The position numbers were made by a program. A DNA stretch of 64,000 nucleotides from contig NW_027362761.1 in the NCBI RefSeq assembly GCF_046119375.1, forward strand, positions 548,328,001 through 548,392,000, written 5' to 3'. Position 1 is the stretch's first letter, and the number at the start of each line of letters is the position of its first letter. The DNA comes from Phyllobates terribilis. Taxonomy: Eukaryota. This document shows positions 3,001 to 9,000 of the stretch, in pieces.

Positions 3001-6000
3001 AGACATGGGTATACGCTTCCTGATTTTGTCTATTTTCTGTTGTCCTCGTCCTTCTCCTCATCCTCCACCACCATATCACCAGGGTGACCGTGATGCAACA
3101 CCCACATAATTTTTTTGCAAGGGTGTTTATGATGCCAGTAGAAATTTTTTTTAGAGGCCTACCTCTAACATTCTGTATGTTATACAGTGTGCTCTGTTCA
3201 TATATACCCCCCAGAGGTCAATGTTTTTCTGCCCAAGCATGGACATTACCAGAATAGGAGACCCATTCCTTAACAATGGTAACAATTTTTTTAATGAGGG
3301 CCTCCTCAATTTCTCTTCAAAGGGTTATTGGAGTGCGTCCTAATTTTTAGCAGCCCTTTCAGTCACTGCATGGGCATTACCAGTATAGGAGACCCACTCA
3401 TTTATAATGGGAACATTTTTTTTACTGGGGCCCGTCTCTATGTCTCTTCAAAGGGGTATTGGAATTAGAGATGAGCGGTGTTCGACTAGAACTGTTCGCC
3501 AATCTCAAATTCGAGCTGTTTTGGGCGGTGTTCGAGTTGTTCGACGAACCCGAACGATTTGCAAAAAATTCGGCTGTTCGAGGTTATGTTCGATAACTGT
3601 TCGTGCACCAAAAGCGTGTCCTGCATGGATTGTCTGCCACTCACTGTAATGCCACAGCCATGGTGGTTGTGGCATTACAGTGATTGCCCAAATCGATGGG
3701 AACAGTGCCAACAGTGAAACATGAAAAGCCGGCAATTCAGCAGCGGCATACACCTGTACCCGACAATTTAGAACCGAAAGAATAGAGCTTCACACATAGA
3801 TTAGATAGATATAAACATGTCAGCCACATATATACGAAGTACAGTGACAGTGTTGCTTACTGTACTTGTCATTTAGCGTAAAGGATTTATCAAAAAAAAT
3901 AATAGTGTTTTCATGCACCGTCTCTTTAAAAAAGCCGGCCGGCAATTCAGCAGCGGTACCCGACAATTTATAACAGACAGAATAGAGCTTCACACATAGA
4001 TTAGATAGATAGAAACATGTCAGTCACATATATATGAAGTACAGTGATAGTGTTGGTTACTGTACTTGTCATTTAGTATTAAAATAAAGGATTTATTATT
4101 AAAAAAATTGGCGTGGGGTTCCCCTTAATTTTAGGCTCTAGCGGAGGTTAAGCAGACGGCTGGGGCAGATGTTTGAAGCCTGGGAAGGGGGTAATACCCA
4201 CGGAGCTTCCCAGGCTACTAATATCAGCCCCCAGCTGAATACATAGCCTTTACTAGCTATTAAAATGGGGGACCCCCCCAAAAAAATGACGTGGGGTCCC
4301 CCCTAATTTAATAGCTAGCAAAGGCTAGGCAGACAGCTGGGGGCTGATATTAATAGCCCAGGAAGGGAGCCATGAATATTGGCCCCCTCCCAGGCTAGAA
4401 ACACCAGCCGTCAGCCGCCCCAGAAATGGCGCATTCATAGGATGCGCCAATTCTGGCACTTAGCCTCGCTCTTCCACGCTGCCCTGGTGCGGTGGCAGGG
4501 GGTAATAGGGTTGGGGTTGATGTCAGCTTATAATGCCAGCTGACATCAAGCCCAGGTTAGTAATGGAGAGGCGTCTATAAGACACCCCCATTACTAACCC
4601 CATAGTCAAAGTTAAAAAAAACACAAACACCCAGAATAAAGTCCTTTAATTGAAATAAAGACACAGTCCTTTATTGTTCTAAATTAAACCATACTTACCG
4701 TCACGCCCATTCCAGCTGAAGCCAACGATCTCCTGCAATAAAAGAAAAATAATAAAGCAACCTCATCCTTACCTTTCCATGGTTCCCACGACAGCTTCAG
4801 CTCTGCTACATCGAGATGACAGGCTGGACCGCAGCAGAACGCTGCCATCCAGCCTCTCATCCCGCAGACACTGAGAAGTGCAGGCTTGCTTGCGCTGCTC
4901 AGCGTCTCTCTGTGACGACATCCAGATGAGCCGAGTTCATGTCCAATGAACTCGGCTCACCTCATGCACGTCACTGACAGCGTGGGAAAATTCTCAAGCT
5001 GAAGCGCTGAGTGCAGGAGAATTTTCCCACGCTGTCAGTGACGTGCATAAGGTGAGCTCATGTCCAATGAACTCAGCTCACCTCCTGCACGTCACTGACA
5101 GCGTGGGAGAATTCTCCTGCACTCAGCGCTTCAGTGCGAGAATTCTCCCACGCTGAAGCGCTGAGTGCAGGAGAATTTTCCCACGCTGTCAGTGACGTGC
5201 ATGAAGTGAGCCGAGTTCATTGGACATTAACTCGGCTCATCTGGATGCCCTCACAGAGAGACACTGTGGAGCGCAAGCAAGCCTGCGCTTCTCAGTGTCT
5301 GCGGGATGACAGACTGGATGGCAGCGTTCTGCTGCGGTACAGCCTGTCATCTCGATGTAGCAGAGCTGAAGCTGTCATGGGAACCATGGAAAGGTAAGGA
5401 TGATGTTGCTTTATTATTTTTCTTTTATTTCAGGAGATCGTTGGCTTCAGCTGGAATGGGCGTGATGGTAAGTATGGTTTAATTTAGAACAATAAAGAAT
5501 TGTGTGTTTATTTCAATTAAAGGACTTTTTTCTGGGTGTTGTGTTTTTTTTAAATTCTTTACTAGAAATTCATGGTGGTCATGTCTAATATTGGCGTGAC
5601 CCCATGAATTTCGGGCTTAGGGCCAGCTGATAATGCCAAGCTGGCCCTAACCCCTTTATTACCCAGTGAGCCACCGCATCAGGGCCCTGGATGAGTTGGG
5701 TACAGCGCCAGAAGATGGCGCTTCTATGAACGCGCCATTTTCCAGGGTGGCTGCGGACTGCAATTTGCAGCGGGGGTGGCCCAGAAAGCTTGGGCCTCCC
5801 TGCGCTGCGGATTCCAGCCCCCAGCTGCCTAGTTGTACCTGGCTGGACACAAAAACAGGGCGAAGCCCCACGTCAATTTTCTTTAAATTATTTCATGAAA
5901 TAATTAAGAAAAAAGGGCTTCCCTATATTGTTGTGTCCGGCCAGGTACAAATAGGCAGCTGGTGGTTGGGGGCAGCCCGTTCCTGCCTGCTGTACCTGGC

Positions 6001-9000
6001 TGGACACAAATATAGTGCGAAGCCCCACGTCAATTTTTTTAAAATTATTTCATGAATTTCCTGAAATAATTTAAAAAAATTTAAGTGGGGCTTCGCACTA
6101 TATTTGTGTCCAGCCAGGTACAGCAGGCAGGAACGGGCTGCCCCCATCCACCAGCTGCCTATTTGTACCTGGCCGGACACAACAATATAGGGAAGCCCTT
6201 TTTTTCTTAATTATTTCATGAATTTCATGAAATAATTAAAAAAAATTGAAGTGGGGCTTCGCACAATATTTGTGTCCAGCCAGGTACAGCAGGCAGGAAC
6301 GGGCTGCCCCCAACCACCAGCTGCCTATTTGTACCTGGCCGGACACAACAATATAGGGAAGGCCTTTTTTTCTTAATTATTTCATGAATTTCATGAAATA
6401 ATTAAAAAAAAAGTACGTGGGGCTTCGCCCTATTTTTGTGTCCAGCCAGGTACAACTAGGCAGCTGGGGGCTGGAATCTGCAGCGCAGGGAGGCCCAAGC
6501 TTTCTGGGCCCCCCCCCGCTACAAATTGCAGTCCGCAGCCACCCCGGAAAATGGCGCGTTCATAGAAGCGCCATCTTCTGGCGCTGTACCCAACTCATCC
6601 AGGGCCCTGGTGCGGTGGCTCACTGGGTAATAAAGGGGTTAGGGCCAGCTTGGTATTATCAGCTGGCCCCAAGCCCAAAATTCATGGGGTCACGCCAGTA
6701 TTAGACATGACCGCCATGAATTTCTAGTAAAGTATTTAAAAAAAACACAACACCCAGAATAAAGTCCTTTAATTGAAATAAAGACACAATTCTTTATTGT
6801 TCTAAATTAAACCATACTTACCATCACACCCATTCCAGCTGAAGCCAACGATCTCCTGCAATAAAAGAAAAATAATAAACCAACCTCATCCTTACCTTTC
6901 CATGGTTCCCACGACAGCTTCAGCTCTGCTACATCGAGATGACTGGCTGGACCGCAGCAGAACGCTGCCATCCAGTCTGTCATCCCGCAGACACTGAGAA
7001 GCGCAGGCATGCTTGCGCTCCTCAGTGTCTCGCTGTGACGGCATCCAGATGAGCCGAGGTCATGTCCAATGAACTCGGCTCACCTCATGCACGTCACTGA
7101 CAGCGTGGGAAAATTCTCACGCTGAAGTGCTGAGTGCAGGAGAATTCTCCCACGCTGTCAGTGATGTGCATGAGGTGAGCTCATGTCCAATGAACTCAGC
7201 TCACCTCCTGCACGTCACTGACAGCGTGGGAAAATTCTCCTGCAATCAGCGCTTCAGCGTGAGAATTTTCCCACGCTGTCAGTGACGTGAATGAGGTGAG
7301 CCGAGTTCATTGGACATGAACTCGGCTCATCTGGATGTCGTCACAGAGAGACGCTGAGCAGCGCAAGCAAGCCTGCGCTTCTCAGTGTCTGCGGGATGAC
7401 AGGCTGGATGGCAGCGTTCTGCTGCGGTCCAGCCTGTCATCTCGATGTAGCAGAGCTGAAGCTGTCGTGGGAACCATGGAAAGGTAAGGATGATGTTGCT
7501 TTATTATTTTACTTTTATTGCAGGAGATCGTTGGCTTCAGCTGGAATGGGCGTGACGGTAAGTATGGTTTAATTTAGAACAATAAAGGACTGTGTCTTTA
7601 TTTCAATTAAAGGACTTTATTCTGGGTGTTTGTGTTTTTTTTAACTTTGACTATGGGGTTAGTAATGGGGGTGTCTTATAGACGCCTCTCCATTACTAAC
7701 CTGGGCTTGATGTCAGCTGGCATTATAAGCTGACATCAACCCCAACCCTATTACCCCCTGCCACCGCACCAGGGCAGCGTGGAAGAGCGAGGCTAAGTGC
7801 CAGAATTGGCGCATCCTATGAATGCGCCATTTCTGGGGCGGCTGACGGCTGGTGTTTCTAGCCTGGGAGGGGGCCAATATTCATGGCTCCCTTCCTGGGC
7901 TATTAATATCAGCCCCCAGCTGTCTGCCTAGCCTTTGCTAGCTATTAAATTAGGGGGGACCCCACGTCATTTTTTTTGGGGGGTCCCCCATTTTAATAGC
8001 TAGTAAAGGCTATGTATTCAGCTGGGGGCTGATATTAGTAGCCTGGGAAGCTCCGTGGGTATTACCCCCTTCCCAGGCTTCAAACATCTGCCCCAGCCGT
8101 CTGCTTAACCTCCGCTAGAGCCTAAAATTAAGGGGAACCCCACGCCAATTTTTTTAATAATAAATCCTTTATTTTAATACTAAATGACAAGTACAGTAAC
8201 CAACACTATCACTGTACTTCATATATATGTGACTGACATGTTTCTATCTATCTAATCTATGTGTGATGCTCTATCTTTCTGTTCTAAATTGTCGGGTACC
8301 GCTGCTGAATTGCCGGCCGGCTTTTTTAAAGAGACAGTGCATGAAAACACTATTATTTTTTTAAATAAATCCTTTACACTAAATGACAAGTACAGTAAGC
8401 AACACTATCACTGTACTTATTATATTTGTGACTGACATGTTTCTATCTATCTAATCTATGTGTGAAGCTCTATTCTTTCTGTTCTAAATTGTCGGGTACA
8501 GATGCTGAATTGCCGGCCGGCTTTTTTAAAGAGACGGTGCATGAAAACACTAATATTTTTTTTAATAAATCCTTTACACTAAATGACAAGTGCAGTAACC
8601 AACACTGTCACTGTGCTTCTTATATGTGTGACTGACATGTTTCTATCTATCTAATCTATGTGTGATGCTCTATTCCTTCTTGTCTAAATTGTCGGGTACC
8701 GGTGTATGCCGCTGCTGAATTTGCCGGCCGGCTTTTTTAAAGAGAGTGTCTTCTGAGCAGTTTGTCAGCTTTTGGACACCTTTGCAGGTGTTTTCTATGT
8801 GTTTCTATGTGTTTTTGTTTGCCTGCCATTGGTTTTAACGGTGTTCGACGGTGTTCTAAGGTGTTCGACGAACAGTTCGACGAACAGTTCCTCGAACATC
8901 CCGGTGTTCGACGAACCGAACCGAACCCGAACACTACGGGGGTGGCTCAACACTAATTGGAATGTGTCCTAATTTTTGACAGCCCTTGCAGTCATTGCAC

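What the first reader, a model, noticed from the sequence alone, without database searches (positions are those of the whole stretch)
3466..8955. Palindrome-of-palindromes mobilised between hAT ends
A clean 8-bp TSD shows this 5.5-kb unit moved by hAT transposition. Its interior has no transposase and shares nothing with the autonomous-type copies beyond the ends. It is a 5-kb palindrome (axis near 6056) whose arms each hold a 0.9-kb palindrome, which in turn hold 60-70-bp hairpins (e.g. 4972-5040, 5040-5097). Flanks of the inner palindromes (about 4400-4560 vs 5620-5770) are older, diverged inverted repeats, suggesting repeated rounds of fold-back duplication. The arms differ mainly in tandem-unit number. 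Inference: a giant MITE-like hairpin that could yield long dsRNA or cruciform DNA.
Basis: partly seen in the sequence, partly recalled or inferred. Interest (0 to 1): 0.66.

Follow-up and report, generated by a model that had tools for sequence, protein, structure and literature searches.

The report
Nested palindrome inside frog hAT transposon
A 5.5-kb non-coding copy of a frog hAT transposon carries, between ordinary transposon ends, a real 5-kb palindrome built of smaller palindromes; this is an unusual but not unprecedented kind of transposon cargo, and nothing here shows that it has a function.

Summary
Window 3466-8955 is bounded by a perfect 8-bp duplication (ATTGGAAT). A neighbouring tandem-repeat unit shows the uninterrupted site. 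Its ends (148 bp left, 210 bp right) match three transposase-bearing hAT copies in the same window, each complete one with its own 8-bp duplication.

Between 262 bp of left backbone and 210 bp of right backbone lies a 5,018-bp palindrome (3728-8745). Each arm holds a 1.6-kb palindrome with a 0.9-kb young core and a 260-bp palindrome. The centres are arrays of 60-130-nt hairpins. Three tandem-unit differences explain 359 of the 360 bp by which the arms differ in length. No ORF has a Pfam match, and no RNA family reaches its threshold.

Site patterns among the four core arms (12:1:0) show that the inner palindromes predate the large fold-back. The arms differ at 63 sites, so an assembly fold-back is unlikely.

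The duplication proves that an element with these ends inserted here. It does not prove that the palindrome was aboard. No other copy of the interior exists in the window, and no frog genome, reads or small-RNA data could be searched. The dsRNA and cruciform potential is structural only.

Verdict: a new variant of non-autonomous hAT, of moderate interest.

The parts
3458..3465 (.). Left copy of the 8-bp target-site duplication ATTGGAAT
   Evidence: The paralogous tandem unit has a single ATTGGAGT.
3466..3727 (+). Left hAT backbone. It holds the 12-nt end TAGAGATGAGCG, GTTCGA subterminal repeats (3466-3613) and a conserved subterminal hairpin (3636-3690).
   Evidence: 3466-3613 is 91-92% identical to the E2/E3 left ends. 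There are 5 GTTCGA in these 148 bp. The hairpin and the following stretch recur 155-230 bp inside two other hAT-like ends, at 23484 and 9617. The hairpin folds with z -7.1.
3728..4108 (.). Left outer tandem array, about 1.8 units of ~210 bp
   Evidence: Direct HSP 3728-3900 vs 3938-4108. Inverted match to 8148-8745.
4157..4417 (.). Left third-level palindrome (260 bp, 75%, axis 4287)
   Evidence: E 4.9e-43.
4282..5880 (.). Left second-level palindrome (axis ~5081). It has a young core at 4612-5554 (arms 94%) and old flanks (68-74%).
5814..6474 (.). Central array of ~160-bp units, each a ~120-130-nt hairpin plus a ~40-bp spacer. The spacer orientation flips at hairpin 5991-6122, which is the axis of the large palindrome (6056.5).
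   Evidence: DNA fold of 5991-6122: -63.2 kcal/mol, z -21.3.
6405..7977 (.). Right second-level palindrome (axis ~7191) with young core 6735-7644
7839..8099 (.). Right third-level palindrome (260 bp, 75%)
8148..8745 (.). Right outer tandem array, about 2.9 units of ~200-207 bp
8746..8955 (+). Right hAT backbone with GTTCGA repeats. It ends ...GGCTCAACACTA.
   Evidence: 87-92% identical to the right ends of E2, E3 and E4. There are 5 GTTCGA/TCGAAC in 210 bp.
8956..8963 (.). Right copy of the target-site duplication ATTGGAAT
32084..42631 (+). E2, a transposase-bearing copy of the same hAT family, with TSD ACTGTGAC
34374..38490 (+). E2 transposase-like gene, given as one part. It has a BED finger and a Hermes-like catalytic region. 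Homology to a frog ZBED4-like protein covers residues 13-844 of 845 but is spread over 3 reading frames.
47046..58583 (-). E3, a second transposase-bearing copy, 97% identical to E2, with TSD CTAAAGAG
51194..55081 (-). E3 transposase-like gene, given as one part. The homology is spread over 2 reading frames and has 1 in-frame stop.
62879..64000 (-). E4, the right end of a fourth copy, cut by the window end. It is 97-98% identical to E2 and E3.

Best explanation
E1 (3466-8955) is a non-autonomous member of a frog hAT transposon family. Transposase-bearing copies of that family (E2-E4) lie in the same window.

Shown: an element with these ends inserted by hAT cut-and-paste into a 131-bp tandem repeat and duplicated 8 bp. 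It keeps only the cis parts: short imperfect terminal inverted repeats, GTTCGA subterminal repeats and a conserved subterminal hairpin. That is 262 bp on the left and 210 bp on the right. In place of the coding interior it carries a 5,018-bp non-coding palindrome.

Inferred: the palindrome grew by repeated fold-back (snap-back) duplication seeded at short hairpins. First came ~260-bp and 1.6-kb palindromes. Their 0.9-kb cores were then renewed. Then one large fold-back occurred at a 130-nt hairpin. Later, slippage changed tandem-unit numbers, and probably arm-to-arm conversion evened out the outer part.

It most likely has no selected function. Its consequences follow from structure. If read through, it gives a hairpin RNA with a stem of about 2.3 kb. 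As DNA it can form hairpins or a cruciform. This makes it a candidate small-RNA source and a fragile or recombinogenic spot.
For: hAT identity:
- 3 of 3 complete copies have perfect 8-bp duplications, and a paralogous empty site exists.
- The ends are shared with E2-E4.
- GTTCGA-dense stretches occur only at ends of E1-E4. All 6 such stretches of the window lie at 6 of the 7 ends present.
- The E2 ORF has a BED finger (E 9e-11) and matches Hermes transposase (E 3e-6).
- All named hits with E below 1e-50 are anuran ZBED4/6-like or hAT-domain proteins carrying PF02892, PF27039 and PF05699.

Non-coding cargo:
- 0 of 26 ORFs have a Pfam hit.
- All 61 Rfam matches are below their gathering scores.
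- There are 0 tRNAs.

Palindrome anatomy.

Order of events: site patterns 0110 x12, 0101 x1, 0011 x0.

Each level is centred on hairpins. This fits fold-back priming at short inverted repeats next to a break, as reviewed in PMC7999016 (passages read).

The family moves large foreign cargo. E2 and E3 share about 4 kb of Tc1-like and RT debris at 97.7% identity.

RNA fold of 5380-6870: -1284.5 kcal/mol, an almost unbroken stem.
Against: - Only one copy of this interior is known. blastn of the interior against the rest of the window, even at word size 7, finds only the 66-bp backbone hairpin, a 78-bp 70% match and a 47-bp match at E 0.047. Movement of the palindrome as a unit is therefore unproven.
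- Both palindrome ends abut hAT backbone at nearly symmetric positions. A pre-formed inserted unit explains this more simply than snap-back synthesis during repair.
- Arm divergence is uneven: 9/1066 vs 27/612 mismatches, p 3.7e-6. One fold-back alone does not predict this.
- E1's ends are 8-13% diverged from E2-E4, which differ by 2-3% among themselves. The present neighbours need not be its partners.
- Neither E2 nor E3 has the transposase in one open frame.
- There are no data on transcription, small RNAs or DNA structure.
Confidence: 0.6

Rival explanations
1. Nested insertion. A separate foldback-type transposon, with long inverted arms whose outer parts are tandem repeats, inserted into a short (~470-bp) hAT miniature element. 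The hAT element was only the landing site.
For: - The palindrome (3728-8745) ends in the same ~200-bp tandem unit on both sides and abuts hAT backbone on both sides.
- The number of terminal tandem units differs between the arms. Foldback-like elements and the cod hAT MITE gadMor-hAT-1784 show the same, the latter with 600-bp arms of 167-169-bp units (PMC12368964, passages read).
Against: - No direct duplication is visible at the 3727/3728 and 8745/8746 junctions (read).
- The right junction shows only a 3-nt overlap (GTG) between the tandem unit and the backbone (read). That looks like end joining rather than insertion.
- There is no second copy in the window.
Confidence: 0.2
2. In-situ origin. 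A longer hAT element inserted here and made the duplication. Its interior was later replaced at this same site, by faulty repair with template switching and fold-back. On this reading the palindrome never moved.
For: - The duplication and both ends would be kept by such repair.
- The right junction is abrupt, with a 3-nt overlap.
- This interior occurs only once in the window.
- Internal deletion with filler DNA is the usual origin of non-autonomous hAT elements (recalled: 'abortive gap repair' for maize Ds; no paper read).
Against: - A snap-back copy of the left arm would have to stop by chance almost exactly at the cargo/backbone boundary.
- The source of the first 2.3 kb of unrelated DNA stays unexplained.
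Confidence: 0.25
3. Assembly artefact. A fold-back chimeric read or a mis-join produced a false palindrome.
For: Long palindromes are a known artefact class of long-read libraries (recalled). No reads could be inspected.
Against: - The arms differ at 63 ungapped mismatch sites and by three tandem-unit differences.
- Divergence varies along the arms.
- Isolated mismatches have 18 transitions to 22 transversions, not different from the E2/E3 control of 104:93.
- The nested palindromes of 94% and 68-75% identity cannot come from one chimeric read.
Confidence: 0.05
4. Composite insertion from alternative hAT transposition, as described for maize Ac/Ds. Ends of two elements act together and produce inverted duplications.
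For: Alternative transposition of Ac/Ds produces inverted duplications that give dsRNA and siRNAs (bioRxiv 10.1101/2020.01.07.897926, abstract and outline read). Four copies of the family lie within 64 kb.
Against: Those duplications contain transposon or flanking sequence. Here the 5,018-bp palindrome holds 0 GTTCGA motifs, has no similarity to E2-E4 and includes none of the flanking 131-bp repeat.
Confidence: 0.03

Closest known systems
Non-autonomous hAT elements (Ds-type derivatives; 'hAT-N' entries of repeat libraries)
   Same: 8-bp duplication, short imperfect terminal inverted repeats, subterminal short repeats, no transposase, and ends shared with transposase-bearing copies.
   Different: The interior is not a deletion remnant of the autonomous copy. 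It is 5 kb of unrelated DNA arranged as a three-level palindrome.
gadMor-hAT-1784, a palindromic hAT-derived MITE of Atlantic cod (PMC12368964; passages read)
   Same: hAT-derived, without an ORF, with long inverted arms made of tandem units of ~167 bp and nested inverted repeats. Here the units are ~166 bp and ~200 bp.
   Different: The cod element is ~1.3-1.4 kb and its inverted arms are described as its 600-bp terminal repeats. Here the palindrome is 5 kb. It is flanked by 262 and 210 bp of unique, mutually non-palindromic hAT backbone and has two further nested levels. No sequence comparison was possible, because the cod consensus was not available to me.
Foldback elements (Drosophila FB; Galileo of the P superfamily). 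FB features are recalled. For Galileo only a search listing was seen.
   Same: Long inverted arms whose outer parts are tandem repeats that vary in number between arms.
   Different: In foldback elements the inverted arms reach the termini. Here the termini are hAT ends, and the duplication is 8 bp as in hAT.
Hairpin-RNA loci made by inverted duplication of transposon DNA: maize Mu killer (start of abstract of PMC3440606 seen) and Ac/Ds composite insertions (abstract read)
   Same: An inverted duplication of several kb that would give a long hairpin RNA if read through.
   Different: Those hairpins are made of the transposon's own sequence and silence it. This one shares nothing with the transposase gene or the ends, so it could not target its own family. 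Expression is unknown.
Large palindromes formed by fold-back priming at short inverted repeats near a break (review PMC7999016; passages read)
   Same: Each level of the palindrome is centred on a shorter hairpin, as that mechanism predicts.
   Different: That mechanism is described for chromosome ends and amplicons. Here the product is interstitial and sits between transposon ends, so a second joining step is needed. That step is inferred only.

Membership tests
hAT superfamily, non-autonomous element | 8-bp target-site duplication | tested here: met
   ATTGGAAT lies on both sides. The paralogous unit has one copy. E2 and E3 also have perfect 8-bp duplications.
hAT superfamily, non-autonomous element | Short, imperfect terminal inverted repeats | tested here: met
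   TAGAGATGAGCG vs the reverse complement of the right end, TAGTGTTGAGCC: 9 of 12 positions match (read).
hAT superfamily, non-autonomous element | Ends shared with copies that encode a hAT transposase (BED finger plus RNase-H-like catalytic core) | tested here: met
   Ends are 87-92% identical. BED E 9e-11. Hermes transposase E 3e-6. Anuran ZBED4/6-like relatives.
hAT superfamily, non-autonomous element | C-terminal hAT dimerisation domain (PF05699) in the partner transposase | tested here: inconclusive
   Pfam gave no PF05699 hit in the four ORFs scanned. tblastn homology nevertheless reaches residue 844 of 845 of P0002, whose precomputed domains include PF05699.
hAT superfamily, non-autonomous element | Target consensus nTnnnnAn (recalled, not from a call) | tested here: inconclusive
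   ATTGGAAT and CTAAAGAG fit. ACTGTGAC fits at one of the two positions. Three sites are too few to judge.
hAT superfamily, non-autonomous element | No transposase of its own | tested here: met
   0 of 26 ORFs of 50 aa or more have a Pfam hit. The longest ORF is 129 aa.
hAT superfamily, non-autonomous element | Several copies of the same derivative at different sites, which would be evidence of mobilisation | not testable with these tools
   There is one copy in the window. No eukaryotic genome collection was open.
MITE | Small size (up to some hundreds of bp) and high copy number | tested here: not met
   The element is 5,490 bp long. Copy number is not testable.
Foldback element | Long inverted arms that reach the element's termini | tested here: not met
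   The palindrome spans 3728-8745. The outer 262 and 210 bp are not inverted copies of each other beyond the 12-nt ends.
Foldback element | Arms made of tandem subrepeats that vary in number | tested here: met
   The outer ~200-bp units number 1.8 vs 2.9. The central 166-bp units differ by one.
Hairpin-RNA / endogenous siRNA locus | Long inverted repeat able to fold into an extended RNA duplex | tested here: met
   The 1,491-nt centre folds at -1284.5 kcal/mol as one stem. The arms are 94-99% complementary.
Hairpin-RNA / endogenous siRNA locus | Transcription through the repeat and small RNAs from both arms | not testable with these tools
   No expression data were available.
microRNA precursor families (Rfam) | Score at or above the family's gathering threshold | tested here: not met
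   The best match is MIR841 at 98.8 bits against a threshold of 200. All 61 matches are below threshold. They are generic hairpin look-alikes.
Composite insertion from alternative hAT transposition | Inverted duplication made of transposon or flanking DNA | tested here: not met
   The palindrome holds 0 GTTCGA motifs and shows no similarity to E2-E4 or to the flanking repeat.

The most novel reading that the evidence does not exclude
The element is a mobile long-hairpin locus. On this reading, a hAT family has picked up a palindrome that keeps enlarging itself by fold-back at its own hairpins. It has carried the palindrome to several sites. The almost spacerless 5-kb palindrome has survived in a vertebrate germline long enough for 1-6% arm divergence, partly evened out by arm-to-arm conversion, and it feeds a small-RNA pathway.
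Probability: 0.1. Interest if true: 0.6.

Novelty: new variant of a known kind. Interest (0 to 1): 0.35.

Why it matters
If real and present at several sites, the element would show that hAT transposons can spread kilobase-scale palindromes through a vertebrate genome. Such structures are expected to be fragile, recombinogenic and able to give long double-stranded RNA.

The nested anatomy, with a datable order of events, also gives a natural record of how large palindromes grow from short hairpins. That process is otherwise studied mostly in yeast, in bacteria and in tumour amplicons.

As it stands, it is one well-documented, unusual transposon copy in a repeat-rich frog region, with no evidence of function.

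Tried and rejected
1. Transversion excess between the arms. The ungapped count was 40 transitions to 74 transversions, which hinted at errors or an odd mutation process. The excess came from misregistered clusters such as 5048-5074. Isolated mismatches give 18:22, not different from the E2/E3 control of 104:93 (p 0.35). Dropped.

2. Rfam. There were 61 matches at E of 1 or less, nearly all microRNA precursor models hit by generic hairpins, and all below gathering scores. 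Not a known RNA family.

3. tRNA-derived parts: 0 genes.

4. Protein-level search for other copies of the interior.
- The 87-aa ORF (5134-5394) gave no hit.
- The 129-aa ORF (5666-6052) gave 3 hits among 1.84 billion representatives. On reading, all three are unrelated tandem-repeat proteins whose scores add up over 7-9 weak stretches. I treat them as spurious.

5. Text search for the two 12-nt ends found 4 papers, all on unrelated topics judging by their titles (listing only). Within that library the ends are not printed in a transposon paper.

6. Similarity of the interior to E2/E3, including their ~108-bp tandem units: none, even at word size 7.

7. Target duplications at the palindrome/backbone junctions: none seen by eye.

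8. The bacterial promoter/terminator scan was not used, because it does not apply to a vertebrate.

9. The prokaryote-only genome-contig scan and the phage, plasmid and E. coli collections were not used, because they cannot hold frog repeats.

Full report
**Source and setting.** The window has no N, 45% G+C and a CpG observed/expected ratio of 0.48. The transposase-like ORF of a neighbouring element finds frog proteins as its closest relatives: ZBED4/6-like and BED or hAT-domain proteins of Ranitomeya, Dendrobates, Leptobrachium and others, at 42-52% identity. More distant hits come from a brittle star, a fish and plants. I take the window for anuran DNA, not human. No spliced gene model was attempted.

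**The element and its insertion.** E1 runs 3466-8955. ATTGGAAT lies directly outside both ends. The flanks belong to a short array of ~131-bp units: 3327-3461 aligns with 8956-9090 at 76%. The neighbouring unit has a single ATTGGAGT between the same flanking words. It acts as a paralogous empty site, so the 8-mer is a true duplication and not a repeat periodicity.

**Relatives in the window.** blastn of E1 against the window gives 7 hits outside E1 among 59 HSPs.
- The left 148 bp recur at 32084 (+) and 58583 (-).
- The right 210 bp recur at 42631 (+), 47046 (-) and 62879 (-).

These hits define three more elements:
- E2 at 32084-42631, duplication ACTGTGAC.
- E3 at 47046-58583, duplication CTAAAGAG.
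- E4, truncated by the window end.

So 3 of 3 complete copies have perfect 8-bp duplications. The 12-nt ends match each other at 9 of 12 positions (read). GTTCGA/TCGAAC occurs 5 times in the left 148 bp and 5 times in the right 210 bp. It does not occur in 3614-8745. The six dense stretches of the window all lie at ends of E1-E4.

**The family is hAT.**
- The 893-aa ORF of E2 has a BED finger (E 9.4e-11).
- It matches Hermes transposase in the solved-structure set (E 3.3e-6).
- Its relatives carry PF02892, PF27039 and PF05699.
- PF05699 itself was not detected by Pfam in the four ORFs scanned.
- tblastn with the frog protein P0002 nevertheless covers residues 13-844 of 845 in both copies.

In E2 this homology is spread over 3 reading frames, with no stop inside the matched stretches. 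In E3 it is spread over 2 frames, with 1 in-frame stop. I did not determine whether the frame changes are introns or frameshifts. 'Autonomous-type' is therefore fair as a description of content. Neither copy is shown to be intact.

E2, E3 and E4 are 97-98% identical to one another. They differ mainly in the number of ~108-bp tandem units. E1's ends are only 87-92% identical to them, so E1 belongs to an older side branch.

**Extent of the hAT backbone in E1.** Homology with E2/E3 stops near 3613, but the next 114 bp are not cargo.
- The hairpin at 3622-3686 recurs at 23639-23704, about 155-220 bp inside another hAT-like end at 23484.
- The stretch near 3685-3715 recurs about 190-230 bp inside a third hAT-like end at 9617 on the minus strand.

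E1 is therefore 262 bp of left backbone, a 5,018-bp insert (3728-8745) and 210 bp of right backbone.

**The palindrome.** One inverted self-alignment covers 3728-8517 at 93.6% over 4,856 columns. The outer tandem units extend it to 8745.
- Ungapped arms: 3982-5155/7101-8274 (1,174 nt, 98%), 5171-5782/6507-7118 (612 nt, 96%) and 5909-6043/6070-6204 (135 nt, 98%, 26 nt apart).
- Second level: each arm contains a palindrome, 4282-5880 (axis 5081) and 6405-7977 (axis 7191). Each has a young core (4612-5554 and 6735-7644, arms 94%) and old flanks of 68-74% identity.
- Third level: 260-bp palindromes at 4157-4417 and 7839-8099, 75%.
- Centres: the cores are centred on 121-bp and 31-bp tandem hairpin units.
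- Middle of the whole: an array of ~160-bp units, each a 120-130-nt hairpin plus a ~40-bp spacer. The spacer orientation flips at hairpin 5991-6122.

Of the 24 local inverted HSPs in the whole window, 21 lie in E1.

The arms measure 2,329 and 2,689 bp. Three tandem-unit differences (+217, +175, -33) explain 359 of the 360 bp. This arithmetic is mine.

**Order of events.** I aligned the four copies of the core arm and counted biallelic site patterns.
- 12 sites group each arm with its partner across the large axis.
- 1 site supports one alternative grouping.
- 0 sites support the other.

The inner palindromes had therefore already diverged when the large fold-back happened.

**An unexplained point.** Divergence between the large arms is 9/1066 in the outer stretch and 27/612 in the inner stretch (Fisher p 3.7e-6). 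Private changes number 2+2 on the distal core arms against 9+6 on the proximal ones. A single fold-back predicts equal values. Arm-to-arm conversion of the outer part, as recalled for sex-chromosome palindromes, or exchange with another copy could explain this. Neither can be tested here.

**Is it an artefact?** The arms differ at 63 ungapped sites and in three unit numbers. Isolated mismatches have an ordinary transition/transversion ratio for this window: 18:22 against 104:93 between E2 and E3. The older nested levels cannot arise from one chimeric read. I rate an assembly fold-back at about 5%, but no reads could be checked.

**Content of the cargo.**
- 0 of 26 ORFs of 50 aa or more have a Pfam hit.
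- There are no tRNAs.
- All 61 Rfam matches are sub-threshold hairpin look-alikes.
- Two ORFs searched against the large protein sets gave nothing credible.
- The interior has no relative elsewhere in the window apart from the backbone hairpin, a 78-bp 70% match at 21206-21283 and a 47-bp match at E 0.047.

**How it most likely arose and works.** It is shown that a hAT element with these ends inserted here, and that its interior is a nested, non-coding palindrome whose levels differ in age. The rest is inferred.

Growth by fold-back priming at short hairpins is the mechanism reviewed in PMC7999016 (passages read). In it, a break next to a short inverted repeat lets the 3' end fold back and prime synthesis, which gives a large palindrome centred on that repeat.

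Whether the last fold-back happened before the element came to this site or afterwards cannot be told from one copy. Symmetric abutment of both arms on backbone favours a pre-formed unit. The abrupt right junction, with a 3-nt overlap, favours end joining.

The family clearly carries large foreign cargo. E2 and E3 share about 4 kb of Tc1-like and reverse-transcriptase debris.

The consequences are structural. The central 1,491 nt fold as one stem at -1284.5 kcal/mol. Expression and small RNAs are unknown.

**Comparison with what is known.**
- The closest published case I could read is the cod hAT-derived MITE gadMor-hAT-1784. It is palindromic, lacks an ORF and has 600-bp arms of 167-169-bp tandem units (PMC12368964, passages read). 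Its supplementary tables, which may hold the consensus, were closed.
- Ac/Ds alternative transposition gives inverted duplications that yield dsRNA and siRNAs (bioRxiv 10.1101/2020.01.07.897926, abstract and outline). Those are made of transposon DNA, which is not the case here.
- Foldback elements share arms built of tandem repeats, but their arms reach the termini (recalled).

E1 passes the hAT tests and fails the MITE size test. It also fails the foldback test that the arms reach the termini.

**What stayed unchecked.**
- Reads, expression and methylation data.

**Verdict.** This is a real and unusually elaborate palindromic cargo in a non-autonomous frog hAT element. It is a new variant of a known kind, of moderate interest (0.35).

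Noticed in passing
window 3466-8955, 32084-42631, 47046-58583, 62879-64000: Four copies of one hAT family lie within 64 kb. E2, E3 and E4 are 97-98% identical but have different 8-bp duplications and flanks, so they are separate insertions. This pattern is expected from local hopping of hAT elements.
   Followed up: partly
window 38207-42420 (E2) and 47260-51477 (E3): Both long copies carry the same ~4 kb of foreign debris between the transposase region and the right end. It includes a Tc3-type HTH (weak hit) and an RVT_1 piece at 40071-40496 (-), E 6.7e-15. The debris is 97.7% identical between the copies, so it travelled with the element.
   Followed up: partly
window 33001-34257 (E2) and 55313-57665 (E3): A ~108-bp tandem array lies just left of the transposase region. 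It has roughly 11-12 units in E2 and about 21 in E3, and it is the main length difference between the two copies.
   Followed up: no
window 9617 (-), 12527 (-), 23484 (+); ORFs 655-999 (+), 28457-28774 (+): Further hAT-like ends of other families, and two more BED-finger ORFs (E 2e-9 and 3e-9). The ends at 9617 and 23484 share subterminal motifs with E1's 3614-3727.
   Followed up: partly
window 45676-46287 (-), 61382-63052 (-): Reverse-transcriptase pieces (RVT_1 E 1.7e-8 and a weak 0.0035). The right end of E4 (62879) lies inside the second mechanical ORF, just upstream of its RT match, so E4 seems to have inserted into a retroelement. This may be the virus-like stretch the operators mention. 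It was described only.
   Followed up: no
window 3237-3465, 8956-9150, 43739-44093: A ~131-bp tandem-repeat family is the target of the E1 insertion. A related short array lies between E2 and E3. Tandem Repeats Finder did not report it.
   Followed up: partly
window 5380-5470 and its three mirror copies in the core arms: Read by eye: an ACCATGG start context followed by GT...AG intron-like signals in each core arm. This could mean the core derives from the 5' part of a gene. The ORFs there have no Pfam or protein hits.
   Followed up: partly
window 3982-5047 vs 5171-5782 (and their mirror stretches): There is a five-fold difference in arm-to-arm divergence along the large palindrome (0.8% vs 4.4%, p 3.7e-6). 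It is unexplained.
   Followed up: partly
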